This document shows, piece by piece, positions 36,101 through 64,000 of a stretch of DNA of 64,000 bases. The stretch lies in the NCBI RefSeq assembly GCF_009914755.1, contig NC_060929.1; one strand, 5' to 3'. The translations under genes were made by a program, and so were the position numbers. This DNA comes from the human T2T-CHM13v2.0 reference genome, Homo sapiens. Under the pieces are notes generated by a model. That model did no database searches. It was not told the origin of the DNA and worked only from the letters and a program-made list of their open reading frames with translations. Each line of letters begins with the position of its first letter. Within the stretch, counting starts at the first letter, position 1.

Positions 36101-39100
36101 GCGTTCGACTCACGGAGTTTAACCTACCTTTTCATACAGCAGTTTGGAAACACTCTGTTTGTAAAGTCTGCACGTGGATATTTGGACATCTTTGAGGCCT
36201 TCGTTGGAAACGGGTTTTATTCATGTAAGGCTAGACAGAAGATTTCTCAGTAACTTCTTTGTGTTGTGTGTATTCAACTGACAGAGTTGACCCTTCTTTT
36301 AGGTAGAGCAGATTTGAGACACTCTTTTTGTGGAATTTGCAAGTGGAGATTTCAGACGCTTTGAGGTCAATGGTAGAAAAGGACATTTCTTCGTATAAAA
36401 ACTTGACAGAATGATTCTCAGAAACTGCTTTGTGATGTATGCGTTCAATTCAAAGAGTTCTACCTTTCTTTTCATAGAGCACTTAGGAAACACTCTGTTT
36501 GTAAAGACTGCAAGTGGATATTCGGACCTCTATGAGGCCTTCTTTGGAAAAGGGATTTCTTCATATAATGCTAGACAGAGGAATTCTTCGTAACTTCTTT
36601 GTATTGTGTGTATTCAACTCACAGAGTTGAACCTTCTTTTAGATAGAGCAGATTTGAAACACACTTTCTGTGGAATTTCCAATTGGAGATTTCAAGCGCT
36701 TCGGGGCCAATGGTAGAAAAGGAAAAATCTTCACAAAAAAACTAGACAAAATCATTCCCAGAAACTGTGTAGTGATGTGTATGTTTAACTCACAGAGTTT
36801 ATCCTTTCTTTTCATAGAGCAGTTGGGAAACACTCTGTTTGAAAAGTCTGCATGTGGATATTTGGACCGCCATGAGGCGTTCTTTGGAAATGGTATTTCT
36901 TCATTTAAGGCTACACAGAAGAATTCTCAGTAACTTCCTTGTGTTGTGTGTATTCAGCTCACAGAGTTGAACCTTCTTTTAGATAGAGCAGATTTGAAAG
37001 ACACTTTTTGGGGAATTTGCAAGTGGGGATTTCAAGCGCTTTGAGGCCAACGGTAGAAAAGGAAATATCTTCGAATAAAAAGTAGACAGAATCATTCCCA
37101 GAAACTGCGTTTTGATGTGTGCGTTCACCTAACAGAGTTTAACCTTCCTTTTCATAGAGCAGTTGGGAAACGCTATGTTTGTAAAGTCTGCAAGTGGATA
37201 TTGGGAACTCTTTGAGGCCTTCATTGGGAATGGGGTTTCTTCATATAATGCTAGACAGAAGATTTCCCAGTAACTTCTTCCTGTTGTGTGTATTCAACTG
37301 ACAACAGATGAACCTTCCTTTAGAGAGAGCATATTTGAAACACTCTTTTTGTGGAAGTTGCAAGTGGAGATTTCAGCCGCTTTAACGTCAATGGTAGAAA
37401 AGGAAATATCTTCGCATAAAAACAAGACAGAATCATTTTCAGAAACTGCTTTGTGATGTGTGCATTCAACTCACAGAGTTTAACCTTTGTTTTCCTAGAG
37501 CCGTTTGGAAACACACAGTTTGTCAAATCTGTAAGTCGATATTCGGACCTATTTGAGGCCTTCGTTGGAAACGGGATTTCTTCATATAATGCTAGAAAGA
37601 AGAATTCTCAGTAACTTCCTTGTGTTCTGTGTAATCAACTCACAGAATAGAACGTTCCTTTAGATAGAGCAGATTTGAAACACTCTTTTTGTGGAAGTTG
37701 CACGTGGAGATTTCAAGCGCTTTGTGGCCAGTGGTAGAAAATGAAATATCTTCGTATAAAAAGTACACAGAATCATTCTCAGAAACTACTTTCTGATGTG
37801 TGCGTTCAACTCTCGGAGTTTAAACTTTCTTTTCATAGAGCAGTTTGGAAACAGTGTGTTTGTAAAGTCTGCAAGTGGATATTCGGACCTCTTTGGCGCC
37901 TTATTTTGAAACGGGGTTTCTCCATATAATGCTAGACAGAAGAATTCTCAGTAACTTGTTTGTGTTGTGTGTGTTCAACTCACAGAGTTCAACCTTCCTT
38001 TAGACAGAGCAGATTTGAAACACTCTTTTTGTGGAATTTGCAAGTGGAGATTTCAAGCGCTTTGAGGCCAAAGGCAGAAGAGGAAATATCTTCGTATAAA
38101 AACTAGATAGATCATTCTCAGAAACTGCTTTGTGATGTGTGCGTTCAACTCACAGAGTTTCACTTATCTTTTCGTACAGCAGTTTGGAGACACTCTGTTT
38201 GTAATGTCTGCAAGTGGATATTTTGACCTCTTTGAGGTCTTCGTTGGAAACGGGTTTTATTCATGTAAGGCTAGACAGAAGAATTCTCAGTAACTTCTTT
38301 GTATTGTGTGTATTCCACTGACAGAGTTGACCCTTTCTTTAGACAGAGCACATTTGAACCACTCTTTTTGTGGAATTTGCAAGTGGAGATTTCAGACGCA
38401 TTGAGGTCAATGGTAGAAAAGGAAATATCTTCGTATAAAAACTACACAGAATGATTCTCAGAACCTGCTTCGTCATGTGTGTGTTCAGTTCAAAGAGTTT
38501 TACCTTTCTTTTCATAGAGCAGTTAGGAAACACTCTGTTTGAAAAGTCTGAAAGTGGATATTCCGATCTCTTTGAGGCCTTCGTTGGAAAAGGGATTTCT
38601 TCATATAATGCTAGACAGAGGAATTCTCAGTAACTTCTCTGTGTTGTGTGTATTCAAATCACAGAGTTGAACGTTCCTTTAGACAGAACAGACTTGAAAC
38701 ACTCTTTTTGTGGAATTTGCAATAGGAAATTTCAAGCGCTTTGAGGCCAAAGGCAGAAGAGGAAATATCTTCGTATAAAAACAAGTCAGAATCATTCTCA
38801 GAAACTGCTTAATCATGTGTGCGTTCGACTCACGGAGTTTAACCTACCTTTTCATACAGCAGTTTGGAAACACTCTGTTTGTAAAGTCTGCACGTGGATA
38901 TTTGGACATCTTTGAGGCCTTCGTTGGAAACGGGTTTTATTCATGTAAGGCTAGACAGAAGATTTCTCAGTAACTTCTTTGTGTTGTGTGTATTCAACTG
39001 ACAGAGTTGACCCTTCTTTTAGGTAGAGCAGATTTGAGACACTCTTTTTGTGGAATTTGCAAGTGGAGATTTCAGACGCTTTGAGGTCAATGGTAGAAAA

Positions 39101-40456
39101 GGACATTTCTTCGTATAAAAACTTGACAGAATGATTCTCAGAAACTGCTTTGTGATGTATGCGTTCAATTCAAAGAGTTCTACCTTTCTTTTCATAGAGC
39201 ACTTAGGAAACACTCTGTTTGTAAAGACTGCAAGTGGATATTCGGACCTCTATGAGGCCTTCTTTGGAAAAGGGATTTCTTCATATAATGCTAGACAGAG
39301 GAATTCTTCGTAACTTCTTTGTATTGTGTGTATTCAACTCACAGAGTTGAACCTTCTTTTAGATAGAGCAGATTTGAAACACACTTTCTGTGGAATTTCC
39401 AATTGGAGATTTCAAGCGCTTCGGGGCCAATGGTAGAAAAGGAAAAATCTTCACAAATAAACTAGACAAAATCATTCCCAGAAACTGTGTAGTGATGTGT
39501 ATGTTTAACTCACAGAGTTTATCCTTTCTTTTCATAGAGCAGTTGGGAAACACTCTGTTTGAAAAGTCTGCATGTGGATATTTGGACCGCCATGAGGCGT
39601 TCTTTGGAAATGGTATTTCTTCATTTAAGGCTACACAGAAGAAGTCTCAGTAACTTCCTTGTGTTGTGTGTATTCAGCTCACAGAGTTGAACCTTCTTTT
39701 AGATAGAGCAGATTTGAAAGACACTTTTTGGGGAATTTGCAAGTGGGGATTTCAAGCGCTTTGAGGCCAACGGTAGAAAAGGAAATATCTTCGAATAAAA
39801 AGTAGACAGAATCATTCCCAGAAACTGCGTTTTGATGTGTGCGTTCACCTAACAGAGTTTAACCTTCCTTTTCATAGAGCAGTTGGGAAACGCTATGTTT
39901 GTAAAGTCTGCAAGTGGATATTGGGAACTCTTTGAGGCCTTCATTGGGAATGGGGTTTCTTCATATAATGCTAGACAGAAGATTTCCCAGTAACTTCTTC
40001 CTGTTGTGTGTATTCAACTGACAACAGATGAACCTTCCTTTAGAGAGAGCAGATTTGAAACACTCTTTTTGTGGAAGTTGCAAGTGGAGATTTCAGCCGC
40101 TTTAACGTCAATGGTAGAAAAGGAAATATCTTCGCATAAAAACAAGACAGAATCATTTTCAGAAACTGCTTTGTGATGTGTGCATTCAACTCACAGAGTT
40201 TAACCTTTGTTTTCATAGAGCCGTTTGGAAACACACAGTTTGTCAAATCTGTAAGTCGATATTCGGACCTATTTGAGGCCTTCGTTGGAAACGGGATTTC
40301 TTCATATAATGCTAGAAAGAAGAATTCTCAGTAACTTCCTTGTGTTCTGTGTAATCAACTCACAGAATAGAACGTTCCTTTAGATAGAGCAGATTTGAAA
40401 CACTCTTTTTGTGGAAGTTGCACGTGGAGATTTCAAGCGCTTTGTGGCCAGTGGTA

Positions 40457-42835
40457 GAAAATGAAATATCTTCGTATAAAAAGTACACAGAATCATTCTC
40501 AGAAACTACTTTCTGATGTGTGCGTTCAACTCTCGGAGTTTAAACTTTCTTTTCATAGAGCAGTTTGGAAACAGTGTGTTTGTAAAGTCTGCAAGTGGAT
40601 ATTCAGACCTCTTTGGCGCCTTATTTTGAAACGGGGTTTCTCCATATAATGCTAGACAGAAGAATTCTCAGTAACTTGTTTGTGTTGTGTGTGTTCAACT
40701 CACAGAGTTGAACCTTCCTTTAGACAGAGCAGATTTGAAACACTCTTTTTGTGGAATTTGCAAGTGGAGATTTCAAGCGCTTTGAGGCCAAAGGCAGAAA
40801 AGGAAATATCTTCGTATAAAAACTAGATAGATCATTCTCAGAAACTGCTTTGTGATGTGTGCGTTCAACTCACAGAGTTTCACTTATCTTTTCGTACAGC
40901 AGTTTGGAAACACTCTGTTTGTAATGTCTGCAAGTGGATATTTTGACCTCTTTGAGGTCTTCGTTGGAAACGGGTTTTATTCATGTAAGGCTAGACAGAA
41001 GAATTCTCAGTAACTTCTTTGTATTGTGTGTATTCCACTGACAGAGTTGACCCTTCCTTTAGACAGAGCACATTTGAACCACTCTTTTTGTGGAATTTGC
41101 AAGTGGAGATTTCAGACGCATTGAGGTCAATGGTAGAAAAGGAAATATCTTCGTATAAAAACTAGACAGAATGATTCTCAGAACCTGCTTCGTGATGTGT
41201 GTGTTCAGTTCAAAGAGTTTTACCTTTCTTTTCATAGAGCAGTTAGGAAACACTCTGTTTGAACAGTCTGAAAGTGGATATTCCGATCTCTTTGAGGCCT
41301 TCGTTGGAAAAGGGATTTCTTCATATAATGCTAGACAGAGGAATTCTCAGTAACTTCTCTGTGTTGTGTGTATTCAAATCACAGAGTTGAACGTTCCTTT
41401 AGACAGAGCAGACTTGAAACACTCTTTTTGTGGAATTTGCAATAGGAAATTTCAAGCGCTTTGAGGCCAAAGGCAGAAGAGGAAATATCTTCGTATAAAA
41501 ACAAGTCAGAATCATTCTCAGAAACTGCTTAATCATGTGTGCGTTCGACTCACGGAGTTTAACCTACCTTTTCATACAGCAGTTTGGAAACACTCTGTTT
41601 GTAAAGTCTGCACGTGGATATTTGGACATCTTTGAGGCCTTCGTTGGAAACGGGTTTATTCATGTAAGGCTAGACAGAAGATTTCTCAGTAACTTCTTTG
41701 TGTTGTGTGTATTCAACTGACAGAGTTGACCCTTCTTTTAGGTAGAGCAGATTTGAGACACTCTTTTTGTGGAATTTGCAAGTGGAGATTTCAGACGCTT
41801 TGAGGTCAATGGTAGAAAAGGACATTTCTTCGTATAAAAACTTGACAGAATGATTCTCAGAAACTGCTTTGTGATGTATGCGTTCAATTCAAATAGTTCT
41901 ACCTTTCTTTTCATAGAGCACTTAGGAAACACTCTGTTTGTAAAGACTGCAAGTGGATATTCGGACCTCTATGAGGCCTTCTTTGGAAAAGGGATTTCTT
42001 CATATAATGCAAGACAGAGGAATTCTTCGTAACTTCTTTGTATTGTGTGTATTCAACTCACAGAGTTGAACCTTCTTTTAGATAGAGCAGATTTGAAACA
42101 CACTTTTTGTGGAATTTCCAATTGGAGATTTCAAGCGCTTCGGGGCCAATGGTAGAAAAGGAAAAATCTTCACATAAAAACTAGACAAAATCATTCCCAG
42201 AAACTGTGTAGTGATGTGTATGTTTAACTCACAGAGTTTATCCTTTCTTTTCATAGAGCAGTTGGGAAACACTCAGTTTGAAAAGTCTGCATGTGGATAT
42301 TTGGACCGCCATGAGGCGTTCTTTGGAAATGGTATTTCTTCATTTAAGGCTACACAGAAGAATTCTCAGTAACTTCCTTGTGTTGTGTGTATTCAGCTCA
42401 CAGATTTGAACCTTCTTTTAGATAGAGCAGATTTGAAAGACACTTTTTGGGGAATTTGCGAGTGGGGATTTCAAGCGCTTTGAGGCCAACGGTAGAAAAG
42501 GAAATATCTTCGAATAAAAAGTAGACAGAATCATTCCCAGAAACTGCGTTTTGATGTGTGCATTCACCTAACAGAGTTAAACCTTCCTTTTCAAAGAGCT
42601 GTTGGGAAACGCTATATTTGTAAAGTCTGCAAGTGGATATTGGGAACTCTTTGTGGCCTTCATTGGGAATGGGGTTTCTTCATATAATGCTAGACAGAAG
42701 ATTTCCCAGTAACTTCCTCCTGTTGTGTGTATTCAACTGACAACAGATGAACCTTCCTTTAGAGAGAGCAGATTTGAAACACTCTTTTTGTGGAAGTTGC
42801 ACGTGGAGATTTCAAGCGCTTTGTGGCCAGAGGTA
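40457..42835 (+). repeat. Second 14-mer (2379 bp) HOR structural variant
   Basis: Same 340 bp deletion (hybrid at 42765-42801) plus a 1 bp deletion near 41655. Confidence 0.93.
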
Positions 42836-43338
42836 GAAAATGAAATATCTTCGTATAAAAAGTACACAGAATCATTCTCAGAAACTACTTTCTGATGTGT
42901 GCGTTCAACTCTCGGAGTTTAAACTTTCTTTTCATAGAGCAGTTTGGAAACAGTGTGTTTGTAAAGTCTGCAAGTGGATATTCGGACCTCTTTGGCGCCT
43001 TAATTTGAAACGGGGTTTCTCCATATAATGCTAGACAGAAGAATTCTCGGTAACTTGTTTGTGTTGTGTGTGTTCAACTCACAGAGTTGAACCTTCCTTT
43101 AGACAGAGCAGATTTGAAACACTCTTTTTGTGGAATTTGCAAGTGGAGATTTCAAGCGCTTTGAGGCCAAAGGCAGACAAGGAAATATCTTCGTATAAAA
43201 ACTAGACAGAATCATTCTCAGAAACTGCTCTGCGATGTGTGCGTTCAACTCTCAGAGTTTAACTTTTCTTTTCATTCAGCTGTTTGGAAACACTCTGTTT
43301 GTAAAGTCTGCACGTGGATATTTTGACCACTTAGAGGC

Positions 43339-46300
43339 CTTCGTTGGAAACGGGTTTTTTTCCTGTAAGGCTAGACAGAAGAATTCCCAGTAACTTCCTT
43401 GTGTTGTGTACATTCAACTCACAGAGTTGAACGTTCCCTTAGACAGAGCAGATTTGAAACACTCTTTTTGTGCACTTGGCAAGCGGAGATTTCAAGCGCT
43501 TTAAGGTCAATGGCAGAAAAGGAAATATCTTCGTTTCAAAACTAGACAGAATCATTCCCACAAACTGCGTTGTGACGTGTTCGTTCAACTCACAGAGTTT
43601 AACCTTTCTTTTCATAGAGCAGTTAAGAAACAGTCCGTTTGTAAATTCTGTAAGTGGATATTCTGACATCTTGTGGCCTTCGTTGGAAACGGGATTTCTT
43701 CATATTCTGCTAGACAGAAGAATTCTCAGAATCTTCCTTGTGTTGTGTGTATTCAACTCACAGTTGAACGATGGTTTACACAGAGCACATTTGAAACACT
43801 CTTTTTATGGAATTTGCAAGTGGAGATTTCAGCCGCTTTGAGGTCAATGGTAGAAAAGGAAATATCTTCGTATAAAAACTAGACAGAATGTTTCTCAGAA
43901 ACTTCTTTGTGATGTGTGCGTTCAACTCACAGAGTTTCACCTTTCTTTTCATAGAGCAGTTAGGAAACACTCTGTTTGTAAACTCTGCAAGTGGATATTC
44001 AGACCTCTTTGAGGCCTTCGTTGGTAACGGGATTTCTTCATACTGTGCTACACAGAAGAATTCTCAGTAACTTCCTTGTGTTGAGTGTATTAAACTCACA
44101 GAGTTCAATGATCCTTTACACAGAGCGGACTTGAAACACTCTTTTTCTGGAATTTGCAAGTGGAGATTTCAGCCGCGTTGAGGTCAATGGTAGAAAAGGG
44201 AAATATCTTCGTATAAAAACTAGACAGAATGATTCTCAGAAACTCCTTTGTGATGTGTGCGTTCAACTCACAGAGTTTAACCTTTCTTTTCATAGAGCAG
44301 TTAGGAAACACTCTGTTTGTAAAGTCTGCAAGTGGATATTCAGACCTCTTTGAGGCCTTCGTTGGAAACGGGATTTCTTCATACTGTGCTAGACAGAAGA
44401 ATTCTCAGTAACTTCCTTGTGTTGTGTGTATTCAACTCACAGAGTTGAACGATCCTTTACACAGAGCAGACTTGAAACACTCTTTTTGTGGAATTTGCAA
44501 CTGGAGATTTCAGCCGCGTTGAGGTCAATGGTAGAAAAGGAAATATCTTCGTATAAAAACTAGACAGAATGATTCTCAGAAACTCCTTTGTGATGTGTGT
44601 GTTCAACTCACAGAGTTTAACCTTACTTTTCATAGAGCAGTTAGGAAACACTCTGTTTGTAAAGTCTGCAAGTGGATATTCAGACCTCTTTGAGGCCTTC
44701 GTTGGAAACGGGTTTTTTTCATATAAGGCTAGACAGAAGAAATCCCAGTAACTTCCTTGTGTTGTGTGTGTTCAACTCACAGAGATGAACTCTCATTTAC
44801 ACAGAGCAGATTTGAAACTCTCTTTTTGTGGAATTTGCAAATGGAGATTTCAAGCGCTTTGAGGCCAAAGGCAGAAAAGGAAATATCTTCGTATAAAAAC
44901 TAGACAGAATCATTCTCAGAAACTGCTCTGCGATGTGTGCGTTCAACTCTCAGAGTTTAACTTTTCTTTTCATTCAGCAGTTTGGAAACACTCTGTTTGT
45001 AAAGTCTGCATGTGCGTAATTTGACCACTTAGAGGCCTTCGTTGGAAACAGGTTTTGTTCATGTAAGGCTAGACAGAAGAATTCTCAGTAACTTCCTTGT
45101 GTTGTGTGTATTCAACTCACAGAGTTGAACGATCCTTTACACAGAGCAGACTTGTAACACTCTTTTTGTGGAATTTGCAAGTGGAGATTTCAGCCGCTTT
45201 GAAGTCAAAGGTAGAAAAGGAAATATCTTCCTATAAAAACTAGACAGAATGATTCTCAGAAACTTCTTTGTGATGTGTGCGTTCAACTCACAGAGTTTAA
45301 CCTTTCTTTTCATAGAGCAGTTAGGAAACACTGTGTTTTTAAACTGTGCAAGTGGATATTCAGACCTCTTTGAGGCCTTCGTTGGAAACGGGATTTCTTC
45401 ATACTGTGCTAGACAGAAGAATTCTCAGTAACTTCCTTGTGTTGTGTGTATTCAACTCACAGAGTTGAACGATCCTTTACACAGAGCAGACTTGAAACAC
45501 CCTTTTTGTGGAATTTGCAAGTGGAGATTTCAGCCGCGTTGAGGTCAATGGTAGAAAAGGAAATATCTTCGTATAAAAACTGGACAGAATGATTCTCAGA
45601 AACTCCTTTGTGATGTGTGTGTTCAACTCACAGAGTTTAACCTTTCTTTTCATAGAGCAGTTAGGAAACACTCTGTTTGTAAAGTCTGCAAGTGGATATT
45701 CAGACCTCTTTGAGGCCTTCGTTGGAAACGGGATTTTTTCATATAAGGCTAGACAGAAGAATTCCCAGTAACTTCCTTGTGTTGTGTGTGTTCAACTCAC
45801 ACAGTTGAACTTTCATTTACACAGAGCAGATTTGAAACACTCTTTTTGTGGAATTTGAAAATGGAGATTTCAAGCGCTTTGAGGCCAAAGGCAGAAAAGG
45901 AAATATGTTCGTATAAAAACTAGACAGAATCATTCTCAGAAACTGCTCTGCGATGTGTGCGTTCAACTCTCAGAGTTTAACTTTTCTTTTCATTCAGCAG
46001 TTTGGAAACACTCTGTTTGTAAGGTCTGCAAGTGGATATTCAGACCTCTTTGTGGCCTTCTTTGGAAACGGGTTTTTTTCATATAAGGCTAGACAGAAGA
46101 ATTCCCAATAACTTCCTTGTGTTGTGTACATTCAACTCACAGAGTTGAACGTTCCCTTAGACAGAGCAGATTTGAAACACTCTTTTTGTGCAATTGGCAA
46201 GCGGAGATTTCAAGCGCTTTAAGGTCAATGGCAGAAAAGGAAATATCTTCGTTTCAAAACTAGACAGAATCATTCCCACAAACTGCGTTGTGATGTGTTC

Positions 46301-49300
46301 GTTCAACTCACAGAGTTTAACCTTTCTTTTCATAGAGCAGTTAGGAAACAGTCTGTTTGTAAATTCTGTAAGTGGATATTCTGACATCTTGTGGCCTTCG
46401 TTGGAAACGCGATTTCTTCATATTCTGCTAGACAGAAGAATTCTCAGAATCTTCCTTGTGTTGTGTGTATTCAACTCAAAGAGTTGAACGATCCTTTACA
46501 CAGAGCAGACTTGAAACTCTCTTTTTGTGGAATTTGCAAGTGGAGATTTCAGCCGCTTTGAGGTCCATGGTAGAAAAGGAAATATCTTCGTATAAAAACT
46601 AGACAGAATGATTCTCAGAAACTTCTTTGTGATGTGTGCGTTCAACTCACAGAGTTTAACCTTTCTTTTCATAGAGCAGTTAGGAAACACTCTGTTTGTA
46701 AACTCTGCAAGTGGATATTCAGACCTCTTTGAGGCCTTCGTTGGAAACGGGATTTCTTCATACTGTGCTAGACAGAAGAATTGTCAGTAACTTCCTTGTG
46801 TTGTGTGTATTCATCTCACAGAGTTGAACGATCCTTTACACAGAGCGGACTTGAAACACTCTTTTGATGGAATTTGCAAGTGGAGATTTCAGCCACGTTG
46901 AGGTCAATGGTAGAAAAGGAAATATCTTCGTATAAAAACTAGACAGAATGATTCTCAGAAACTCCTTTGTGATGTGTGTGTTCAACTCACAGAGTTTAAC
47001 CTTTCTTTTCATAGAGCAGTTAGGAAACACTCTGTTTGTAAAGTCTGCAAGTGGATAATCAGACCTCTTTGAGGCCTTCGTTGGAAACGGGTTTTTTTCA
47101 TATAAGGCTAGACAGAAGAATTCCCAGTAACTTCCTTGTGTTGTGTGAGTTCAACTCACAGAGTTGAACTTTCATTTACACAGAGCAGATTTGAAACACT
47201 CTTTTTGTGGAATTTGCAAGTGGAGATTTCAAGCGCTTTGACGCCAAAGGCAGAAAAGGAAATATCTTCGTATAAAAATTAGACAGAATCATTCTCAGAA
47301 ACTGCTCTGCGATGTGTGCGTTCAACTCTCAGAGTTTAACTTTTCTTTTCATTCAGCAGTTTGGAAACACTCTGTTTGTAAAGTCTGCACGTGGATATTT
47401 TGACCACTTAGAGGCCTTCGTTGGAAACGGGTTTTTTTCCTGTAAGGCTAGACAGAAGAATTCCCAGTAACTTCCTTGTGTTGTGTACATTCAACTCACA
47501 GAGTTGAACGTTCCCTTAGACAGAGCAGATTTGAAACACTCTTTTTGTGCAATTGGCAAGTGGAGATTTCAAGCGCTTTGAGGTCAATGGCAGAAAAGGA
47601 AATATCTTCGTTTCAAACTAGACAGAATCATTCCCACAAACTGCGTTGTCATGTGTTCGTTCAACTCACAGAGTTTAACCTTTCTTTTCATAGAGCAGTT
47701 AGGAAACAGTCTGTTTGTAAATTCTGTAAGTGGATATTCTGACATCTTGTGGCCTCCGTTGGTAACGGGATTTCTTCATATTCTGCTAGACAGAAGAATT
47801 CTCAGAATCTTCCTTGTGTTGTGTGTATTCAACTCACAGAGTTGAACGATGGTTTACACAGAGCAGATTTGAAACACTCTTTTGGTGGAATTTGCAAGTG
47901 GAGATTTCAGCCGCCTTGACGTCAATGGTAGAAAAGGAAATATCTTCGTATAAAAACTAGACAGAATGATTCTCAGAAACTTCTTTGTGATGTGTGCGTT
48001 CAACTCACAGAGTTTAACCTTTCTTTTCATAGAACAGTTAGGAAACACTCTGTTTGTAAACACTGCAAGTGGATATTCAGACCTCTTTGAGGCCTTCGTT
48101 GGAAACGGGATTTCTTCATACTATGCTAGACAGAAGAATTCTCAGTAACTTCCTTGTGTTGTGTGTATTCAACTCACAGAGTTGAACGATCCTTTACACA
48201 GAGCAGACTTGAAACACTCTTTTTGTGGAATTTGCAACTGGAGATTTCAGCCGCGTTGAGGTCAATGGTAGAAAAGGAAATATCTTCGTATAAAAACTGG
48301 ACAGAATGATTCTCAGAAACTCCTTTGTGATGTGTGTGTTCAACTCACAGAGTTTAACCTTTCTTTTCATAGAGCAGTTAGGAAACACTCTGTTTGTAAA
48401 GTCTGCAAGTGGATATTCAGACCTCTTTGAGGCCTTCGTTGGAAACGGGTTTTTTTCATATAAGGCTAGACAGAAGAATTCCCAGTAACTTCCTTGTGTT
48501 GTGTGTGTTCAACTCACAGAGTTGAACTTTCATTTACACAGAGCAGATTTGAAACACTCTTTTTGTGGAATTTGCAAGTGGAGATTTCAAGCGCTTTGAG
48601 GCCAAAGGCAGAAAAGGAAATATCTTCGTATAAAAACTAGACAGAATCATTCTCAGAAAGTGCTCTGCGATGTGTGCGTTCAACTCTCAGAGTTTAACTT
48701 TTCTTTTCATTCAGCAGTTTGGAAACACTCTGTTTGTAAAGTCTGCACGTGGATAATTTGACCACTTAGAGGCCTTCGTTGGAAACGGGTTTTTTTCATG
48801 TAAGGCTAGACAGAAGAATTCTCAGTAACTTCCTTGTGTTGTGTGTATTCAACTCACAGAGTTGAACGATCCTTTACACAGAGCAGACTTGTAACACTCT
48901 TTTTGTGGAATTTGCAAGTGGAGATTTCAGCCGCTTTGAAGTCAAAGGTAGAAAAGGAAATATCTTCCTATAAAAACTAGACAGAATGATTCTCAGAAAC
49001 TCCTTTGTGATGTGTGCGTTCAACTCACAGAGTTTAACCTTTCTTTTCATAGAGCAGTTAGGAAACACTCTGTTTGTAAAGTCTGCAAGTGGATATTCAG
49101 ACCTCTTTGAGGCCTTCGTTGGAAACGGGTTTTTTTCATATAAGGCTAGACAGAAGAATTCCCAGTAACTTCCTTTTGTTGTGTGTGTTCAACTCACAGA
49201 GTTGAACTTTCACTTACACAGAGCAGATTTGAAACACTCTTTTTGTGGAATTTGCAAGTGGAGATTTCAAGCGCTTTGAGGCCAAAGGCAGAAAAGGAAA

Positions 49301-52300
49301 TATCTTCGTATAAAAACTAGACAGAATCATTCTCAGAAACTGCTCTGCGATGTGTGCGTTCAACTCTCAGAGTTTAACTTTTCTTTTCATTCAGCAGTTT
49401 GGAAACACTCTGTTTGTAAAGTCTGCACGTGGATATTTTGACCACTTAGAGGCCTTCGTTGGAAACGGGTTTTTTTCCTGTAAGGCTAGACAGAAGAATT
49501 CCCAGTAACTTCCTTGTGTTGTGTACATTCAACTCACAGAGTTGAACGTTCCCTTAGACAGAGCAGATTTGAAACACTCTTTTTGTGCAATTGGCAAGTG
49601 GAGATTTCAAGCGCTTTGAGGTCAATGGCAGAAAAGGAAATATCTTCGTTTCAAAACTAGACAGAATCATTCCCACAAACTGCGTTGTGATGTGTTCGCT
49701 CAACTCACAGAGTTTAACCTTTCTTTTCATAGAGCAGTTAGGAAACAGTCTGTTTGTAAATTCTGTAAGTGGATATTCTGACATCTTGTGGCCTTCGTTG
49801 GAAACGGGATTTCTTCATATTCTGCTAGACAGAAGAATTCTCAGAATCTTCCTTGTGTTGTGTGTATTCAACTCACAGAGTTGAACGATGGTTTACACAG
49901 AGCAGATTTGAAACACTCTTTTTGTGGAATTTTCAAGTGGAGATTTCAGCCGCTTTGAGGTCAATGGTAGAAAAGGAAATATCTTCGTATAAAAACTAGA
50001 CAGAATGATTCTCAGAAACTTCTTTGTGATGTGTGCGTTCAACTCACAGAGTTTAACCTTTCTTTTCATAGAGCAGTTAGGAAACACTGTGTTTTTAAAC
50101 TGTGCAAGTGGATATTCAGACCTCTTTGAGGCCTTCGTTGGAAACGGTATTTCTTCATACTGTGCTAGACAGAAGAATTCTCAGTAACTTCCTTGTTTTG
50201 TGTGTATTCAACTCACAGAGTTGAACGATCCTTTACACCGAGCAGACTTGAATCACTCTTTTTGTGGAATTTGCAAGTGGAGATTTCAGCCGCGTTGAGG
50301 TCAATGGTAGAAAAGGAAATATCTTCGTATAAAAACTAGACAGAATGATTCTCAGAAACTCCTTTGTGATGTGTGTGTTCAACTCACAGAGTTTAACATT
50401 TCTTTTCATAGAGCAGTTAGGAAACACTCTGTTTGTAAAGTTTGCAAGTGGATATTCAGACCTCTTTGAGGCCTTCGTTGGAAACGGGTTTTTTTCATAT
50501 AAGGCTAGACAGAAGAATTCCCAGTAACTTCCTTGTGTTGTGTGTGTTCAACTCACAGAGTTGAACTTTCATTTACACAGAGCAGATTTGAAACTCTCTT
50601 TTTGTGGAATTTACAAATGGAGATTTCAAGCGCTTTGAGGCCAAAGGCAGAAAAGGAAATATCTTCGTATAAAAACTAGACAGAATCATTCTCAGAAACT
50701 GCTCTGCGATGTGTGCGTTCAACTCTCAGAGTTTAACTTTTCTTTTCATTCAGCAGTTTGGAAACACTCTGTTTGTAAAGTCTGCACGTGCATAATTTGA
50801 CCACTTAGAGGCCTTCGTTGGAAACAGGTTTTTTTCATGTAAGGCCAGACAGAAGAATTCTCAGTAACTTCCTTGTGTTGTGTCTATTCAACTCACACAG
50901 TTGAACGATCCTTTACACAGAGCAGACTTGTAACACTCTTTTTGTGGAATTTGCAAGTGGAGATTTCAGCCGCTTTGAAGTCAAAGGTAGAAAAGGAAAT
51001 ATCTTCCTATAAAAACTAGACAGAATGATTCTCAGAAACTCCTTTGTGATGTGTGCGTTCAACTCACAGAGTTTAACCTTTCTTTTCATTCACCAGTTTG
51101 GAAACACTCTGTTTGTAAAGTCTGCACGTGGATATTTTGACCACTTAGAGGCCTTCGTTGGAAACGGGTTTTTTTCCTGTAAGGCTAGACAGAAGAATTC
51201 CCAGTAACTTCCTTGTGTTGTGTACATTCAACTCACAGAGTTGAACGTTCCCTTAGACAGAGCAGATTTGAAACACTCTTTTTGTGCAATTGGCAAGTGG
51301 AGATTTCAAGCGCTTTGAGGTCAATGGCAGAAAAGGAAATATCTTCGTTTCAAAACTAGACAGAATCATTCCCACAAACTGCGTTGTGATGTGTTCGTTC
51401 AACTCACAGAGTTTAACCTTTCTTTTCATAGAGCAGTTAGGAAACAGTCTGTTTGTAAATTCTGTAAGTGGATATTCTGACATCTTGTGGCCTTCGTTGG
51501 AAACGGGATTTCTTCATATTCTGCTAGACAGAAGAATTCTCAGAATCTTCCTTGTGTTGTGTGTATTCAACTCACAGAGTTGAACGATGGTTTACACAGA
51601 GCAGATTTGAAACACTCTTTTGGTGGAATTTGCAAGTGGAGATTTCAGCCGCTTTGAGGTCAATGGTAGAAAAGGAAATATCTTCGTAAAAAACTAGACA
51701 GAATGATTCTCAGAAACTTCTTTGTGATGTGTGCGTTCAACTCATAGAGTTTAACCTTTCTTTTCATAGAGCAGTTAGGAAACACTCGGTTTGTAAACTC
51801 TGCAAGTGGATATTCAGACCTCTTTGAGGCCTTCGTTGGAAACGGGATTTCTTCATACTGTGCTAGACAGAAGAATTCTCAGTAACTTCCTTGTGTTGTG
51901 TGTATTCAACTCACAGAGTTGAACGATCCTTTACACAGAGCGGACTTGAAACACTCTTTTTGTGGAATTTGCAAGTGGAGATTTCAGCCGCGTTGAGGTC
52001 AATGGTAGAAAAGGAAATATCTTCGTATAAAAACTAGACAGAATGATTCTCAGAAACTCCTTTGTGATGTGTGTGTTCAACTCACAGAGTTTAACCTTTC
52101 TTTTCATAGAGCAGTTAGGAAACACTCTGTTTGTAAAGTCTGCAAGTGGATATTCAGACCTCTTTGAGGCCTTCGTTGGAAACGGGCTTTTTTCATATAA
52201 GGCTAGACAGAAGAATTCCCAGTAACTTCCTTGTGTTGTGTGTGTTCAACTCACAGAGTTGAACTTTCATTTACACAGAGCAGATTTGAAACACTCTTTT

Positions 52301-53545
52301 TGTATAATTTGCAAATGGAGATTTCAAGCGCTTTGAGGCCAAAGGCAGAAAAGGAAATATCTTCTTATAAAAACTAGACAGAATCATTCTCAGAAACTGC
52401 TCTGCGATGTGTGCGTTCAACTCTCAGAGTTTAACTTTTCTTTTCATTCAGCAGTTTGGAAACACTCTGTTTGTAAAGTCTGCACGTGGATAATTTGACC
52501 ACTTAGAGGCCTTCGTTGGAAACGGGTTTTTTTCATGTAAGGCTAGACAGAAGAATTCTCAGTAACTTCCTTGTGTTGTGTGTATTCAACTCACAGAGTT
52601 GAACGATCCTTTACACAGAGCAGACTTGTAACACTCTTTTTGTGGAATTTGCAAGTGGAGATTTCAGCCGCTTTGAAGTCAAAGGTAGAAAAGGAAATAT
52701 CTTCCTATAAAAACTAGACAGAATGATTCTCAGAAACTCCTTTGTGATGTGTGCGTTCAACTCACAGAGTTTAACCTTTCTTTTCATAGAGCAGTTAGGA
52801 AACACTCTGTTTGTAAATCTGCAAGTGGATATTCAGACCTCTTTGAGGCCTTCGTTGGAAACGGGTTTTTTTCATATAAGGCTAGACAGAAGAATTCCCA
52901 GTAACTTCCTTGTGTTGTGTGTGTTCAACTCACAGAGTTGAACTTTCATTTACACAGAGCAGATTTGAAACACTCTTTTTGTGGAATTTGCAAGTGGAGA
53001 TTTCAAGCGCTTTGAGGCTAAAGGCAGAAAAGGAAATATCTTCGTATAAAAACTAGGCAGAATCATTCTCAGAAACTGCTCTGCGATGTGTGCGTTCAAC
53101 TCTCAGAGTTTAACTTTTCTTTTCATTCAGCAGTTTGGAAACACACTGTTTGTAAAGTCTGCACGTGGATATTTTGACCACTTAGAGGCCTTCGTTGGAA
53201 ACGGGTTTTTTTCCTGTAAGGCTAGACAGAAGAATTCCCAGTAACTTCCTTGTGTTGTGTACATTCAACTCACAGAGTTGAACGTTCCCTTAGACAGAGC
53301 AGATTTGAAAAACTCTTTTTGTGCAATTGGCAAGTGGAGATTTCAAGCGCTTTAAGGTCAATGGCAGAAAAGGAAATATCTTCGTTTCAAAACTAGACAG
53401 AATCATTCCCACAAACTGCGTTGTGATGTGTTCGTTCAACTCACAGAGTTTAACCTTTCTTTTCATAGAGCAGTTAGGAACCAGTCTGTTTGTAAATTCT
53501 GTAAGTGGATATTCTGACATCTTGTGACCTTCGTTGGAAACGGGA
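43339..53545 (+). promoter_or_regulatory. Dense CENP-B box cluster (24 intact of 31 positions, every ~340 bp)
   Basis: Manual count of CTTCGTTGGAAACGGG. Broken boxes are at 44016, 45037, 46057, 46396, 47754, 50133 and 50813. Confidence 0.85.
47458..49495 (+). repeat. 12-mer (2038 bp) unit of the embedded family; second copy at 51195-53231
   Basis: The same ordered series of six distinguishable dimers lies between successive GAATTCCCAGTAACTTCCTTGTGTTGTGTACATTC markers. Confidence 0.8.
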
Positions 53546-53701
53546 TTTCTTCATATTCTGCTAGACAGAAGAATTCTCAGAATCTTCCTTGTGTTGTGTG
53601 TATTCAACTCACAGAGTTGAACGATGGTTTACACAGAGCAGATTTGAAACACTCTTTTTGTGGAATTTGCAAGTGGAGATTTCAGCCGCTTTGAGGTCAA
53701 T

Positions 53702-56700
53702 GGTAGAAAAGGAAATATCTTCGAATAAAAAGTAGACAGAATCATTCCCAGAAACTGCGTTTTGATGTGTGCGTTCACCTAACAGAGTTTAACCTTCCTT
53801 TTCATAGAGCAGTTGGGAAACGCTATGTTTGTAAAGTCTGCAAGTGGATATTGGGAACTCTTTGAGGCCTTCATTGGGAATGGGGTTTCTTCATATAATG
53901 CTAGACAGAAGATTTCCCAGTAACTTCTTCCTGTTGTGTGTATTCAACTGACAACAGATGAACCTTCCTTTAGAGAGAGCATATTTGAAACACTCTTTTT
54001 GTGGAAGTTGCAAGTGGAGATTTCAGCCGCTTTAACGTCAATGGTAGAAAAGGAAATATCTTCGCATAAAAACAAGACAGAATCATTTTCAGAAACTGCT
54101 TTGTGATGTGTGCATTCAACTCACAGAGTTTAACCTTTGTTTTCATAGAGCCGTTTGGAAACACACAGTTTGTCAAATCTGTAAGTCGATATTCGGACCT
54201 ATTTGAGGCCTTCGTTGGAAACGGGATTTCTTCATATAATGCTAGAAAGAAGAATTCTCAGTAACTTCCTTGTGTTCTGTGTAATCAACTCACAGAATAG
54301 AACGTTCCTTTAGATAGAGCAGATTTGAAACACTCTTTTTGTGGAAGTTGCACGTGGAGATTTCAAGCGCTTTGTGGCCAGTGGTAGAAAATGAAATATC
54401 TTCGTATAAAAAGTACACAGAATCATTCTCAGAAACTACTTTCTGATGTGTGCGTTCAACTCTCGGAGTTTAAACTTTCTTTTCATAGAGCAGTTTGGAA
54501 ACAGTGTGTTTGTAAAGTCTGCAAGTGGATATTCGGACCTCTTTGGCGCCTTATTTTGAAACGGGGTTTCTCCATATAATGCTAGACAGAAGAATTCTCA
54601 GTAACTTGTTTGTGTTGTGTGTGTTCAACTCACAGAGTTGAACCTTCCTTTAGACAGAGCAGATTTGAAACACTCTTTTTGTGGAATTTGCAAGTGGAGA
54701 TTTCAAGCGCTTTGAGGCCAAAGGCAGAAAAGGAAATATCTTCGTATAAAAACTAGATAGATCATTCTCAGAAACTGCTTTGTGATGTGTGCGTTCAACT
54801 CACAGAGTTTCACTTATCTTTTCGTACAGCAGTTTGGAGACACTCTGTTTGTAATGTCTGCAAGTGGATATTTTGACCTCTTTGAGGTCTTCGTTGGAAA
54901 CGGGTTTTATTCATGTAAGGCTAGACAGAAGAATTCTCAGTAACTTCTTTGTATTGTGTGTATTCCACTGACAGAGTTGACCCTTCCTTTAGACAGAGCA
55001 CATTTGAACCACTCTTTTTGTGGAATTTGCAAGTGGAGATTTCAGACGCATTGAGGTCAATGGTAGAAAAGGAAATATCTTCGTATAAAAACTAGACAGA
55101 ATGATTCTCAGAACCTGCTTCGTCATGTGTGTGTTCAGTTCAAAGAGTTTTACCTTTCTTTTCATAGAGCAGTTAGGAAACACTCTGTTTGAAAAGTCTG
55201 AAAGTGGATATTCCGATCTCTTTGAGGCCTTCGTTGGAAAAGGGATTTCTTCATATAATGCTAGACAGAGGAATTCTCAGTAACTTCTCTGTGTTGTGTG
55301 TATTCAAATCACAGAGTTGAACGTTCCTTTAGACAGAGCAGACTTGAAACACTCTTTTTGTGGAATTTGCAATAGGAAATTTCAAGCGCTTTGAGGCCAA
55401 AGGCAGAAGAGGAAATATCTTCGTATAAAAACAAGTCAGAATCATTCTCAGAAACTGCTTAATCATGTGTGCGTTCGACTCACGGAGTTTAACCTACCTT
55501 TTCATACAGCAGTTTGGAAACACTCTGTTTGTAAAGTCTGCACGTGGATATTTGGACATCTTTGAGGCCTTCGTTGGAAACGGGTTTTATTCATGTAAGG
55601 CTAGACAGAAGATTTCTCAGTAACTTCTTTGTGTTGTGTGTATTCAACTGACAGAGTTGACCCTTCTTTTAGGTAGAGCAGATTTGAGACACTCTTTTTG
55701 TGGAATTTGCAAGTGGAGATTTCAGACGCTTTGAGGTCAATGGTAGAAAAGGACATTTCTTCGTATAAAAACTTGACAGAATGATTCTCAGAAACTGCTT
55801 TGTGATGTATGCGTTCAATTCAAAGAGTTCTACCTTTCTTTTCATAGAGCACTTAGGAAACACTCTGTTTGTAAAGACTGCAAGTGGATATTCGGACCTC
55901 TATGAGGCCTTCTTTGGAAAAGGGATTTCTTCATATAATGCTAGACAGAGGAATTCTTCGTAACTTCTTTGTATTGTGTGTATTCAACTCACAGAGTTGA
56001 ACCTTCTTTTAGATAGAGCAGATTTGAAACACACTTTCTGTGGAATTTCCAATTGGAGATTTCAAGCGCTTCGGGGCCAATGGTAGAAAAGGAAAAATCT
56101 TCACAAATAAACTAGACAAAATCATTCCCAGAAACTGTGTAGTGATGTGTATGTTTAACTCACAGAGTTTATCCTTTCTTTTCATAGAGCAGTTGGGAAA
56201 CACTCTGTTTGAAAAGTCTGCATGTGGATATTTGGACCGCCATGAGGCGTTCTTTGGAAATGGTATTTCTTCATTTAAGGCTACACAGAAGAAGTCTCAG
56301 TAACTTCCTTGTGTTGTGTGTATTCAGCTCACAGAGTTGAACCTTCTTTTAGATAGAGCAGATTTGAAAGACACTTTTTGGGGAATTTGCAAGTGGGGAT
56401 TTCAAGCGCTTTGAGGCCAACGGTAGAAAAGGAAATATCTTCGAATAAAAAGTAGACAGAATCATTCCCAGAAACTGCGTTTTGATGTGTGCGTTCACGT
56501 AACAGAGTTTAACCTTCCTTTTCATAGAGCAGTTGGGAAACGCTATGTTTGTAAAGTCTGCAAGTGGATATTGGGAACTCTTTGAGGCCTTCATTGGGAA
56601 TGGGGTTTCTTCATATAATGCTAGACAGAAGATTTCCCAGTAACTTCTTCCTGTTGTGTGTATTCAACTGACAACAGATGAACCTTCCTTTAGAGAGAGC

Positions 56701-59700
56701 AGATTTGAAACACTCTTTTTGTGGAAGTTGCAAGTGGAGATTTCAGCCGCTTTAACGTCAATGGTAGAAAAGGAAATATCTTCGCATAAAAACAAGACAG
56801 AATCATTTTCAGAAACTGCTTTGTGATGTGTGCATTCAACTCACAGAGTTTAACCTTTGTTTTCATAGAGCCGTTTGGAAACACACAGTTTGTCAAATCT
56901 GTAAGTCGATATTCGGAACTATTTGAGGCCTTCGTTGGAAACGGGATTTCTTCATATAATGCTAGAAAGAAGAATTCTCAGTAACTTCCTTGTGTTGTGT
57001 GTAATCAACTCACAGAATAGAACGTTCCTTTAGATAGAGCAGATTTGAAACACTCTTTTTGTGGAAGTTGCACGTGGAGATTTCAAGCGCTTTGTGGCCA
57101 GTGGTAGAAAATGAAATATCTTCGTATAAAAAGTACACAGAATCATTCTCAGAAACTACTTTCTGATGTGTGCGTTCAACTCTCGGAGTTTAAACTTTCT
57201 TTTCATAGAGCAGTTTGGAAACAGTGTGTTTGTAAAGTCTGCAAGTGGATATTCGGACCTCTTTGGCGCCTTAATTTGAAACGGGGTTTCTCCATATAAT
57301 GCTAGACAGAAGAATTCTCAGTAACTTGTTTGTGTTGTGTGTGTTCAACTCACAGAGTTGAACCTTCCTTTAGACAGAGCAGATTTGAAACACTCTTTTT
57401 GTGGAATTTGCAAGTGGAGATTTCAAGCGCTTTGAGGCCAAAGGCAGAAAAGGAAATATCTTCGTATAAAAACTAGATAGATCATTCTCAGAAACTGCTT
57501 TGTGATGTGTGCGTTCAACTCACAGAGTTTCACTTATCTTTTCGTACAGCAGCTTGGAAACACTCTGTTTGTAATGTCTGCAAGTGGATATTTTGACCTC
57601 TTTTAGGTCTTCGTTGGAAACGGGTTTTATTCATGTAAGGCTAGACAGAAGAATTCTCAGTAACTTCTTTGTATTGTGTGTATTCCACTGACAGAGTTGA
57701 CCCTTCCTTTAGACAGAGCACATTTGAACCACTCTTTTTGTGGAATTTGCAAGTGGAGATTTCAGACGCATTGAGGTCAATGGTAGAAAAGGAAATATCT
57801 TCGTATAAAAACTAGACAGAATGATTCTCAGAACCTGCTTCGTGATGTGTGTGTTCAGTTCAAAGAGTTTTACCTTTCTTTTCATAGAGCAGTTAGGAAA
57901 CACTCTGTTTGAACAGTCTGAAAGTGGATATTCCGATCTCTTTGAGGCCTTTGTTGGAAAAGGGATTTCTTCATATAATGCTAGACAGAGGAATTCTCAG
58001 TAACTTCTCTGTGTTGTGTGTATTCAAATCACAGAGTTGAACGTTCCTTTAGACAGAGCAGACTTGAAACACTCTTTTTGTGGAATTTGCAATAGGAAAT
58101 TTCAAGCACTTTGAGGCCAAAGGCAGAAGAGGAAATATCTTCGTATAAAAGCAAGTCAGAATCATTCTCAGAAACTGCTTAATCATGTGTGCGTTCGACT
58201 CACGGAGTTTAACCTACCTTTTCATACAGCAGTTTGGAAACACTCTGTTTGTAAAGTCTGCACGTGGATATTTGGACATCTTTGAGGCCTTCGTTGGAAA
58301 CGGGTTTTATTCATGTAAGGCTAGACAGAAGATTTCTCAGTAACTTCTTTGTGTTGTGTGTATTCAACTGACAGAGTTGACCCTTCTTTTAGGTAGAGCA
58401 GATTTGAGACACTCTTTTTGTGGAATTTGCAAGTGGAGATTTCAGACGCTTTGAGGTCAATGGTAGAAAAGGACATTTCTTCGTATAAAAACTTGACAGA
58501 ATGATTCTCAGAAACTGCTTTGTGATGTATGCGTTCAATTCAAAGAGTTCTACCTTTCTTTTCATAGAGCACTTAGGAAACACTCTGTTTGTAAAGACTG
58601 CAAGTGGATATTCGGACCTCTATGAGGCCTTCTTTGGAAAAGGGATTTCTTCATATAATGCTAGACAGAGGAATTCTTCGTAACTTCTTTGTATTGTGTG
58701 TATTCAACTCACAGAGTTGAACCTTCTTTTAGATAGAGCAGATTTGAAACACACTTTCTGTGGAATTTCCAATTGGAGATTTCAAGCGCTTCGGGGCCAA
58801 TGGTAGAAAAGGAAAAATCTTCACAAAAAAACTAGACAAAATCATTCCCAGAAACTGTGTAGTGATGTGTATGTTTAACTCACAGAGTTTATCCTTTCTT
58901 TTCATAGAGCAGTTGGGAAACACTCTGTTTGAAAAGTCTGCATGTGGATATTTGGACCGCCATGAGGCGTTCTTTGGAAATGGTATTTCTTCATTTAAGG
59001 CTACACAGAAGAATTCTCAGTAACTTCCTTGTGTTGTGTGTATTCAGCTCACAGAGTTGAACCTTCTTTTAGATAGAGCAGATTTGAAAGACACTTTTTG
59101 GGGAATTTGCAAGTGGGGATTTCAAGCGCTTTGAGGCCAACGGTAGAAAAGGAAATATCTTCGAATAAAAAGTAGACAGAATCATTCCCAGAAACTGCGT
59201 TTTGATGTGTGCGTTCACCTAACAGAGTTTAACCTTCCTTTTCATAGAGCAGTTGGGAAACGCTATGTTTGTAAAGTCTGCAAGTGGATATTGGGAACTC
59301 TTTGAGGCCTTCATTGGGAATGGGGTTTCTTCATATAATGCTAGACAGAAGATTTCCCAGTAACTTCTTCCTGTTGTGTGTATTCAACTGACAACAGATG
59401 AACCTTCCTTTAGAGAGAGCATATTTGAAACACTCTTTTTGTGGAAGTTGCAAGTGGAGATTTCAGCCGCTTTAACGTCAATGGTAGAAAAGGAAATATC
59501 TTCGCATAAAAACAAGACAGAATCATTTTCAGAAACTGCTTTGTGATGTGTGCATTCAACTCACAGAGTTTAACCTTTGTTTTCATAGAGCCGTTTGGAA
59601 ACACACAGTTTGTCAAATCTGTAAGTCGATATTCGGACCTATTTGAGGCCTTCGTTGGAAACGGGATTTCTTCATATAATGCTAGAAAGAAGAATTCTCA

Positions 59701-62700: not shown

Positions 62701-64000
62701 CTTTGGCGCCTTAATTTGAAACGGGGTTTCTCCATATAATGCTAGACAGAAGAATTCTCAGTAACTTGTTTGTGTTGTGTGTGTTCAACTCACAGAGTTG
62801 AACCTTCCTTTAGACAGAGCAGATTTGAAACACTCTTTTTGTGGAATTTGCAAGTGGAGATTTCAAGCGCTTTGAGGCCAAAGGCAGAAAAGGAAATATC
62901 TTCGTATAAAAACTAGATAGATCATTCTCAGAAACTGCTTTGTGATGTGTGCGTTCAACTCACAGAGTTTCACTTATCTTTTCGTACAGCAGCTTGGAAA
63001 CACTCTGTTTGTAATGTCTGCAAGTGGATATTTTGACCTCTTTGAGGTCTTCGTTGGAAACGGGTTTTATTCATGTAAGGCTAGACAGAAGAATTCTCAG
63101 TAACTTCTTTGTATTGTGTGTATTCCACTGACAGAGTTGACCCTTCCTTTAGACAGAGCACATTTGAACCACTCTTTTTGTGGAATTTGCAAGTGGAGAT
63201 TTCAGACGCATTGAGGTCAATGGTAGAAAAGGAAATATCTTCGTATAAAAACTAGACAGAATGATTCTCAGAACCTGCTTCGTGATGTGTGTGTTCAGTT
63301 CAAAGAGTTTTACCTTTCTTTTCATAGAGCAGTTAGGAAACACTCTGTTTGAACAGTCTGAAAGTGGATATTCCGATCTCTTTGAGGCCTTTGTTGGAAA
63401 AGGGATTTCTTCATATAATGCTAGACAGAGGAATTCTCAGTAACTTCTCTGTGTTGTGTGTATTCAAATCACAGAGTTGAACGTTCCTTTAGACAGAGCA
63501 GACTTGAAACACTCTTTTTGTGGAATTTGCAATAGGAAATTTCAAGCACTTTGAGGCCAAAGGCAGAAGAGGAAATATCTTCGTATAAAAGCAAGTCAGA
63601 ATCATTCTCAGAAACTGCTTAATCATGTGTGCGTTCGACTCACGGAGTTTAACCTACCTTTTCATACAGCAGTTTGGAAACACTCTGTTTGTAAAGTCTG
63701 CACGTGGATATTTGGACATCTTTGAGGCCTTTGTTGGAAACGGGTTTTATTCATGTAAGGCTAGACAGAAGATTTCTCAGTAACTTCTTTGTGTTGTGTG
63801 TATTCAACTGACAGAGTTGACCCTTCTTTTAGGTAGAGCAGATTTGAGACACTCTTTTTGTGGAATTTGCAAGTGGAGATTTCAGACGCTTTGAGGTCAA
63901 TGGTAGAAAAGGACATTTCTTCGTATAAAAACTTGACAGAATGATTCTCAGAAACTGCTTTGTGATGTATGCGTTCAATTCAAAGAGTTCTACCTTTCTT
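53702..64000 (+). repeat. 16-mer (2720 bp) HOR array, right block
   Basis: Resumes mid-unit at TTCGAATAAAAAGTAGAC (HOR position ~2058), with unit starts at 54387, 57107, 59827 and 62547. Confidence 0.95.

What the first reader, a model, noticed from the sequence alone, without database searches (positions are those of the whole stretch)
40457..53723. The mobile module may be larger than the island: a copied array boundary (diverged 14-mer plus island) dropped into an (AB)n haplotype block
Seen: the host directly right of the island carries rare markers at 53981 (GAGCATATTT), 54277 (GTTCTGT), 54839 (GGAGACAC), 55124 (CGTCATG), 56108 (ACAAATAA) and 56294 (GAAGTCTC). The same markers occur left of it at 37331, 37627, 38189, 38474, 39458 and 39644, a constant offset of 16650. 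Between them sit a strongly diverged 14-mer and the island. The order is A-B-[diverged 14-mer plus island]-A tail-B-A-B-A. Inference: the old, decayed left junction could be a copy of the natural border between the two arrays, inserted recently. The true left crossover would then be hidden in host-host homology at ~40-41.6 kb.
Basis: inference. Interest (0 to 1): 0.7.

Follow-up and report, generated by a model that had tools for sequence, protein, structure and literature searches.

The report
Duplicated centromere array border on chr5
A 10.5-kb island of active-centromere repeats inside a neighbouring inactive repeat array on human chromosome 5 is a near-exact second copy of the border between the two arrays, 38 kb away; it likely arose by one duplication followed by repeat-unit losses, a known kind of centromere change, and it likely keeps an older version of the active array's edge.

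Summary
The 14-mer and left junction recur at the true 16-mer/live-array border, 38,068 bp to the right (chr5:47,077,171-47,077,274): 40778-44024 differs at 1 of 3,247 bases. Two junction haplotypes have exactly one other perfect hit among the 40 scored candidates. The crossover at 40,778-41,050 is internal: two border 14-mers collapsed into one. 44,025-45,385 is missing from the true border. The island lacks two derived bases and a 10-monomer duplication that live-edge copies share, so it is not very recent (about 2,200-11,600 generations, inferred). Best model (0.6): one exchange in 22 bp of identity (53702-53723) duplicated the border in tandem, then whole-unit deletions shrank the left copy to 16,650 bp. 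Direct insertion (0.33) gives the same product and is not excluded. Border-spanning duplications of active arrays are described in print; I found no account of this one. Not a mobile element.

The parts
35054..37773 (+). A-type 16-mer HOR left of the module. From 35,515 it is base-identical to the last A copy before the true border (offset 35,690); 37052-37073 is the place equivalent to the right junction.
37774..40493 (+). B-type 16-mer HOR. Its tail matches the last B' before the true border. A patch at 37990-39175 holds 6 differences from that copy (3 private, 1 shared only with upstream copies, 2 shared with other right-hand B copies).
40494..42872 (+). 14-mer (monomers 1-13 plus 14/16 hybrid). 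It is a recombinant of the two tandem 14-mers at the true border (76184 and 78564 in extended window coordinates), crossover in 40,778-41,050, one 2,378-bp unit lost.
43103..43206 (+). Left junction: switch from host monomer 2 to a live-array monomer within a 104-bp window. Same junction at chr5:47,077,171-47,077,274, which contains the published start of the active array (47,077,198).
43207..44024 (+). First live-array monomers, identical to the first live monomers at the true border (offset 38,068).
44025..45385 (+). Eight monomers (1,361 bp) absent from the true border. The 5' part has no closer relative than 96% among 40 scored candidates; the 3' part survives before a second live-edge copy 105,326 bp away.
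45251..53701 (+). Rest of the island, colinear with the live-array edge at offsets 46,222 then 47,922: lacks a 9,515-bp block and a 1,699-bp tandem 10-mer; 7 private changes.
53702..53723 (+). Right junction: switch from a live monomer back to host monomer 12 within 22 bp of identity; no second copy found.
53724..64000 (+). Right host block (A tail, B, A, B, A ...), continuing beyond the window as B', B, A, B', 14-mer, 14-mer, monomers 1-2, to the true border at extended coordinate 81,171-81,274.

Best explanation
The island and the 16-mer repeats to its left are a second copy of the border between the inactive 16-mer array and the active chromosome 5 array, likely made by one tandem duplication across that border and likely trimmed afterwards by deletions of whole repeat units. 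Shown: the two junctions are the same sequence; the offsets to the border region step up 35,690, 38,068, 36,707, 46,222, 47,922; the only new joint is the 22-bp live-to-host switch at 53702-53723. Inferred: an unequal sister exchange or a backward template switch joined a live monomer about 20 kb inside the active array to monomer 12 of an A-type host unit upstream of the border, so that host block, border and live edge were doubled. The left copy then lost 7 host HORs (19,040 bp; or the right block grew), one 14-mer (2,378 bp) and 56 live monomers (9,515 bp), while the true border lost 8 monomers (1,361 bp) and the live edge gained a 10-mer and its 28.5-kb and 68.6/70.3-kb macro-repeats. The steps add up to the difference between 47,922 and 16,650 with one single-base deletion. 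No function is proposed; it is most likely passive satellite turnover.
For: 1 difference in 3,247 bp across the junction at offset 38,068 and 6 in 5,536 bp at offset 35,690. Control: for 41852-42700 the border copy has 1 mismatch, the next best host copies 12-13. Monomer-13 haplotype and the 40,605 base each have exactly one other 100% hit, at the border (40 scored of 1,258 and of 183 candidates). The right junction has no second copy (40 scored of 1,400). The island's nearest relatives are four copies at chr5:47.09-47.19 Mb (98%), ahead of chr19 and chr1 (96%). Divergence of the host-side part (7 in 8,510) and the live part (12 or 13 in 8,451) does not differ (P = 0.26, 0.19), as one event predicts. 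Pedigree data show whole-unit deletions of 340 bp to 19.4 kb, 28 deletions against 206 SNVs (PMC12822586, passages); the left copy's roughly 13 private changes would go with about 2 deletions, and the model needs 3 (my arithmetic).
Against: The 6 host-side differences cluster in 1,186 bp (P = 0.0016, post hoc), and two of them side with other B copies (37990 with the copy at 59864; 39175 is ancestral where the border B' is derived): the left B body may be older host rather than copy. If the unit is taken to start at 39,850, the junction part (1 in 4,175) is more alike than the island (one-sided P = 0.03-0.04, post hoc). No intermediate with a longer left block can be seen in one haplotype. I held only 40 kb upstream and 200 kb downstream of the window, and genome searches scored 40 candidates each.
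Confidence: 0.6

Rival explanations
1. Direct insertion: a piece of the border was copied into the existing A/B block, by a forward and a backward template switch in one event or by a circle cut out of the border and reinserted 7 HORs upstream by one homologous crossover. The left end would lie in host-host homology at 35.5-37.5 kb (a clean 16,650-bp insert) or at 39,176-39,848.
For: The product is the same as in the best model. The left A-B body matches the right-hand A(57144)-B(59864) pair about as well up to 39,175 and carries clustered private bases that no right-hand copy has. With a start at 39,850 the junction part looks younger than its flanks. The A tail right of the island lacks the 37495 base that the left tail shares with the last A, as a crossover in the tail would give.
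Against: It still needs the 14-mer collapse and the 9,515-bp loss, so it saves one deletion at most. A single offset (35,690) explains 35515-41050 without an extra crossover. Centromeric de novo events read in pedigrees were integer-unit gains and losses (PMC12240836, PMC12822586; passages). A search for circle reintegration in alpha satellite listed only 2 Drosophila papers (listing only).
Confidence: 0.33
2. The island is an old relic or an independent insertion from deep in the live array or from chr1/chr19, and the two junctions arose separately or were later made alike by gene conversion.
For: The island differs from today's edge by several indels and 12-13 bases in 8,451; the near-identity is highest around the junction, which a conversion tract could give.
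Against: The whole island is colinear with the first 20 kb of the live edge in rising offsets, the colinear host part runs 8.5 kb, and chr1/chr19 hits are more distant. A 99% hit at chr5:48.99 Mb is plain live array with no host monomers matching.
Confidence: 0.05
3. Assembly artefact: a false duplication of the border.
For: The two copies are nearly identical over several kb in a highly repetitive region. I could not inspect reads.
Against: The left copy has its own private bases, sequence found nowhere else (44025-44130) and a unique right junction; a false duplication in a homozygous genome would not create these (CHM13 homozygosity is from my own knowledge).
Confidence: 0.02

Closest known systems
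Duplications of an active alpha-satellite array with its flanking HORs (Gao et al. preprint, PMC12822586, section 6 part 1 read)
   Same: A piece of active array plus flank is doubled, giving two separate arrays; reported for chromosomes 5, 7, 12, 13, 17, 19 and 20 in at least one person each, and small active arrays flank the main one on chromosomes 10 and 17.
   Different: Those events are described as hundreds of kb; this one spans 16.65 kb today (47.9 kb in border coordinates) and its flank is a homogeneous 16-mer array. Their Supplementary Fig. 10 was not seen, so I cannot say whether it shows this locus.
S1C5pH2 16-mer (pseudocentromeric) beside S1C1/5/19H1L = D5Z2 (live) (PMC6447721, passages)
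   Same: 16-monomer 5p host array and a related live SF1 array; the true border matches the published active-array start 47,077,198 (PMC10053651 supplementary file 4).
   Different: The passages seen name the arrays but say nothing of an island or a doubled border.
De novo integer-HOR insertions and deletions in pedigrees (PMC12240836, PMC12822586; passages)
   Same: Every offset step here is a whole number of monomers, with crossovers inside homology.
   Different: The founding joint links two different HOR types (island monomers differ from the nearest host monomer at 17 bases on average) through 22 bp of identity.
Inter-array seeding in the layered expansion model (bioRxiv 10.1101/2021.07.12.452052, section 9 read)
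   Same: Sequence of one array type comes to lie inside another.
   Different: Here live-type repeats lie in an inactive array, came from next door with their border attached, and show no sign of expansion.

Membership tests
S1C5pH2 16-mer host array | 16-monomer, 2,720-bp homogeneous HOR on the p side of the chr5 live array | tested here: met
   name and length from PMC6447721 table
S1C5pH2 16-mer host array | Monomer-by-monomer match to the published HOR monomer models | not testable with these tools
   No alpha-satellite HMM library is held; my monomer numbers 1-16 are arbitrary.
S1C1/5/19H1L (D5Z2) live array | Monomers shared with the chr5 active array and with chr1 and chr19 | tested here: met
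   Island monomers match the array that starts at the published coordinate with 0-5 differences; further hits on chr19 and chr1.
S1C1/5/19H1L (D5Z2) live array | CENP-A binding or hypomethylation | not testable with these tools
   Only sequence was seen; CENP-B-box-like sites (pattern recalled) number 0.78 per dimer in the island, 0.35-0.37 in the host, 0.86 in the live array.
Border-spanning duplication of active array plus flank | Both flank HORs and active HORs are present twice in the same order and orientation | tested here: met
Border-spanning duplication of active array plus flank | Polymorphic among people | not testable with these tools
   No second human assembly is held (no relatives).
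Tandem duplication (as against insertion) | Left copy continuous with the host up to the duplication point, with no second new joint | tested here: inconclusive
   One offset fits 35515-41050 with 6 clustered differences; a two-offset fit needs 5 plus a crossover.
Mobile element | Own non-satellite sequence, element ends, dispersed copies | tested here: not met
   The whole window is one alpha-satellite array; both joints lie in homology with no added bases; two copies only, 38 kb apart.

The most novel reading that the evidence does not exclude
A piece of the border was cut out as a circle through a 22-bp exchange between two different HOR types and reinserted seven units upstream as a clean 16,650-bp module. 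It would be a base-resolved case of live-array repeats seeding a neighbouring array, and it froze an older live edge that now serves as an internal outgroup for ordering the 10-mer, 28.5-kb and 68.6/70.3-kb duplications and the 1,361-bp loss at the working border.
Probability: 0.2. Interest if true: 0.6.

Novelty: new member of a known kind. Interest (0 to 1): 0.38.

Why it matters
It turns a small annotated oddity into a readable history: the border between two human centromeric arrays can itself be copied, through a short exchange between unlike repeat types, and the stranded copy keeps sequence that the working border has since lost. That gives a dated marker for chr5 centromere haplotypes and an outgroup for the order of duplications at the p-side edge of D5Z2, testable at once in pangenome assemblies. 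It does not point to a new element or function, and duplications that span an array border are already reported.

Tried and rejected
A 2.7-kb genome search was not scored; short queries worked. A 99% hit to the left junction at chr5:48,987,975 was fetched and is ordinary live array sharing one common monomer pair, not a third border copy. A chr1 or chr19 source: rejected. A surviving donor for the private patch in the left B: no perfect hit among 40 scored of 2,026 candidates, two copies share one base. A younger age for the junction than for the island: seen when the unit starts at 39,850, gone when it starts at 35,515, so not relied on. Other islands in the host array: the hit lists together step through 46.83-46.99 Mb in 2,720- and 2,380-bp units with no gap for one (read by eye from the listings). 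Paper searches for this locus and for mechanism found no description of the doubled border; the coordinates used were recalled and only 47,077,198 was confirmed. The upstream host array between 46.83 and 46.956 Mb was not read base by base.
Full report
Setting. The hub places the window at T2T-CHM13 chr5:46,996,001-47,060,000. It is one alpha-satellite array on the + strand. Cutting it into 376 monomers shows a 16-monomer, 2,720-bp HOR interrupted by 62 monomers of another type at about 43.2-53.7 kb. A 16-mer on 5p (S1C5pH2, pseudocentromeric) and the live S1C1/5/19H1L = D5Z2 array are listed in PMC6447721 (passages); I assign the names from period, place and hits, not from monomer models. Monomer numbers below are my own; coordinates above 64,000 or below 1 extend the window into fetched DNA (200 kb downstream; 40 kb upstream).

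Observation. They are HOR-haplotype markers found 6-11 times in about 42 host copies, so they do not single out that offset. The 14-mer is a recurrent 1-13,14/16 variant; 11 of its 29 differences from the 16-mer majority are due to the hybrid monomer.

Downstream the host block runs A tail, B, A, B, A, B', B, A, B', 14-mer (76184), 14-mer (78564), monomers 1-2, and then the live array begins and fills the rest of the 200 kb. The switch lies at chr5:47,077,171-47,077,274 and contains the published start of the active array, 47,077,198 (PMC10053651, supplementary file 4). Window 40778-44024 matches this border at offset 38,068 with one difference, at 42028, where the border copy has the derived base. 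For 41852-42700 the border copy has 1 mismatch and the next best host copies 12-13. Genome-wide, 42540-42640 and 40570-40640 each have one other perfect hit, at the border (40 scored of 1,258 and 183 candidates), and so has 43120-43290 (40 of 835). The refuting result did not occur.

Left end of the unit. The left 14-mer begins like the first border 14-mer (base 40605 is found only in these two) and ends like the second, with the crossover in 40,778-41,050. Further left, offset 35,690 aligns 35515-41050 with the last A, B' and 14-mer with 6 differences, all in 37990-39175. For 37074-40493 the five possible partners give 9 (16,650), 8, 8, 8 and 6 (35,690) differences. Against a simple reading: the six cluster (P = 0.0016, post hoc); three are private, one is shared only with upstream copies, one with the B at 59864, and one is ancestral where B' is derived. 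The left end is thus certainly before 40,605 and lies somewhere in 35.5-39.85 kb.

The island. After 44,024 the island carries 8 monomers (1,361 bp) that the true border lacks. The border monomer at 81958 is a recombinant: it differs from the island monomer at 43890 only in its 3' part and from the monomer at 150577 only in its 5' part. The 5' part of the extra piece has private bases and no hit above 96% (40 of 2,074); its 3' part survives at offset 105,326 (4 mismatches in 851 bp, next best 12). I infer a deletion at the true border after the copy was made. From 45,251 the island follows the live edge at offsets 46,222 and 47,922. The edge has macro-repeats at 28,539, 68,619 and 70,318 bp. 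In 45251-53701 the island differs from the first copy at 13 places and from the second at 12; 7 are private derived changes of the island, while at 50033 and 51965 the island has the array-wide base and the live copies share a derived one, the latter in both halves of a 1,699-bp tandem 10-mer that the island lacks. The island's template therefore branched before these duplications, or was a paralogue since lost. Nearest relatives of 50130-50260 are the four edge copies (98%), then chr19 and chr1 at 96% (40 of 773).

Right junction. The last live-type base is 53701 and the first host-type base 53724: a switch into host monomer 12 within 22 bp of identity, no bases added, with no second copy (40 of 1,400). 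It is the only new joint. The offsets close: 19,040 (7 HORs) + 2,378 - 1,361 + 9,515 + 1,699 + 1 = 47,922 - 16,650 (terms).

Mechanism. Shown: same junction twice, colinear order, whole-monomer steps, one new joint. Inferred: a single unequal exchange or backward template switch doubled host block, border and about 20 kb of live edge, and deletions followed (0.6). Insertion by a double switch or a reinserted circle gives the same sequence (0.33); one haplotype cannot separate them. The host-side and live-side divergences (7 in 8,510; 12-13 in 8,451) agree with one event (P = 0.19-0.26), though a start at 39,850 makes the junction look younger (P = 0.03-0.04). With published rates of 2.6e-7 (PMC12822586) and 4.94e-8 (PMC12240836) per base per generation the pooled divergence gives about 2,200-11,600 generations; clustering of the changes makes this rough. 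The same pedigree work reports 28 deletions up to 19.4 kb against 206 SNVs, which makes three deletions in the left copy unremarkable.

Known and new. Duplications of active array with flanking HORs, including on chromosome 5, and small active arrays beside the main one are reported (PMC12822586, section 6 part 1); another preprint notes a duplication spanning active and inactive HORs on chr1 and calls the chr5 architecture nearly fixed (10.64898/2026.07.22.740206, section 6). That the island itself is in the CHM13 satellite annotation is my recall; no call confirmed it. Searches and passages of PMC11062924, PMC13477032, PMC10053651, PMC9248890 and the Altemose preprint gave no account of this doubled border. 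Supplements that may bear on it were not seen: PMC11062924 (unreadable), the bioRxiv preprints' files, and the figures of PMC12822586.

Verdict. Observation confirmed, core inference confirmed by its own test, left boundary and 'recent insertion' corrected. A new, base-resolved member of a known kind of centromere rearrangement, useful as a marker and internal outgroup, with no sign of function. Interest 0.38.

Noticed in passing
window 24178-26896: A 16-mer copy with 24 differences from the majority, directly after another 14-mer (21798); many of its bases are shared with the copy at -10842 and its tail with the right-hand B copies.
   Followed up: no
extended window 81281-264000 (L003-L020): The p-side edge of the live array is built of nested macro-repeats at 28,539, 68,619, 67,263 and 70,318 bp.
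   Followed up: partly
window 37990-39175 and 50148-52187: Private or discordant changes in the left copy come in clusters (6 of 7 in 1,186 bp, P = 0.0016; 6 of 7 in 2,040 bp, P = 0.02; post hoc), which could mark error-prone repair tracts or conversion from lost donors.
   Followed up: partly
extended window 53724-76183: The right host block has almost no private bases (1 in eight full copies) and shows 2-unit and 3-unit periodicity, so it likely expanded recently.
   Followed up: partly
window 34717-34882: A 3-base deletion in monomer 15 gives a 2,717-bp unit; hit spacings near chr5:46.84 Mb also step by 2,717.
   Followed up: no
L024/L023, extended window -15942 and -13562: Two host copies carry a run of six or seven changes in monomer 5 positions 90-130, likely a short conversion tract from another monomer.
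   Followed up: no
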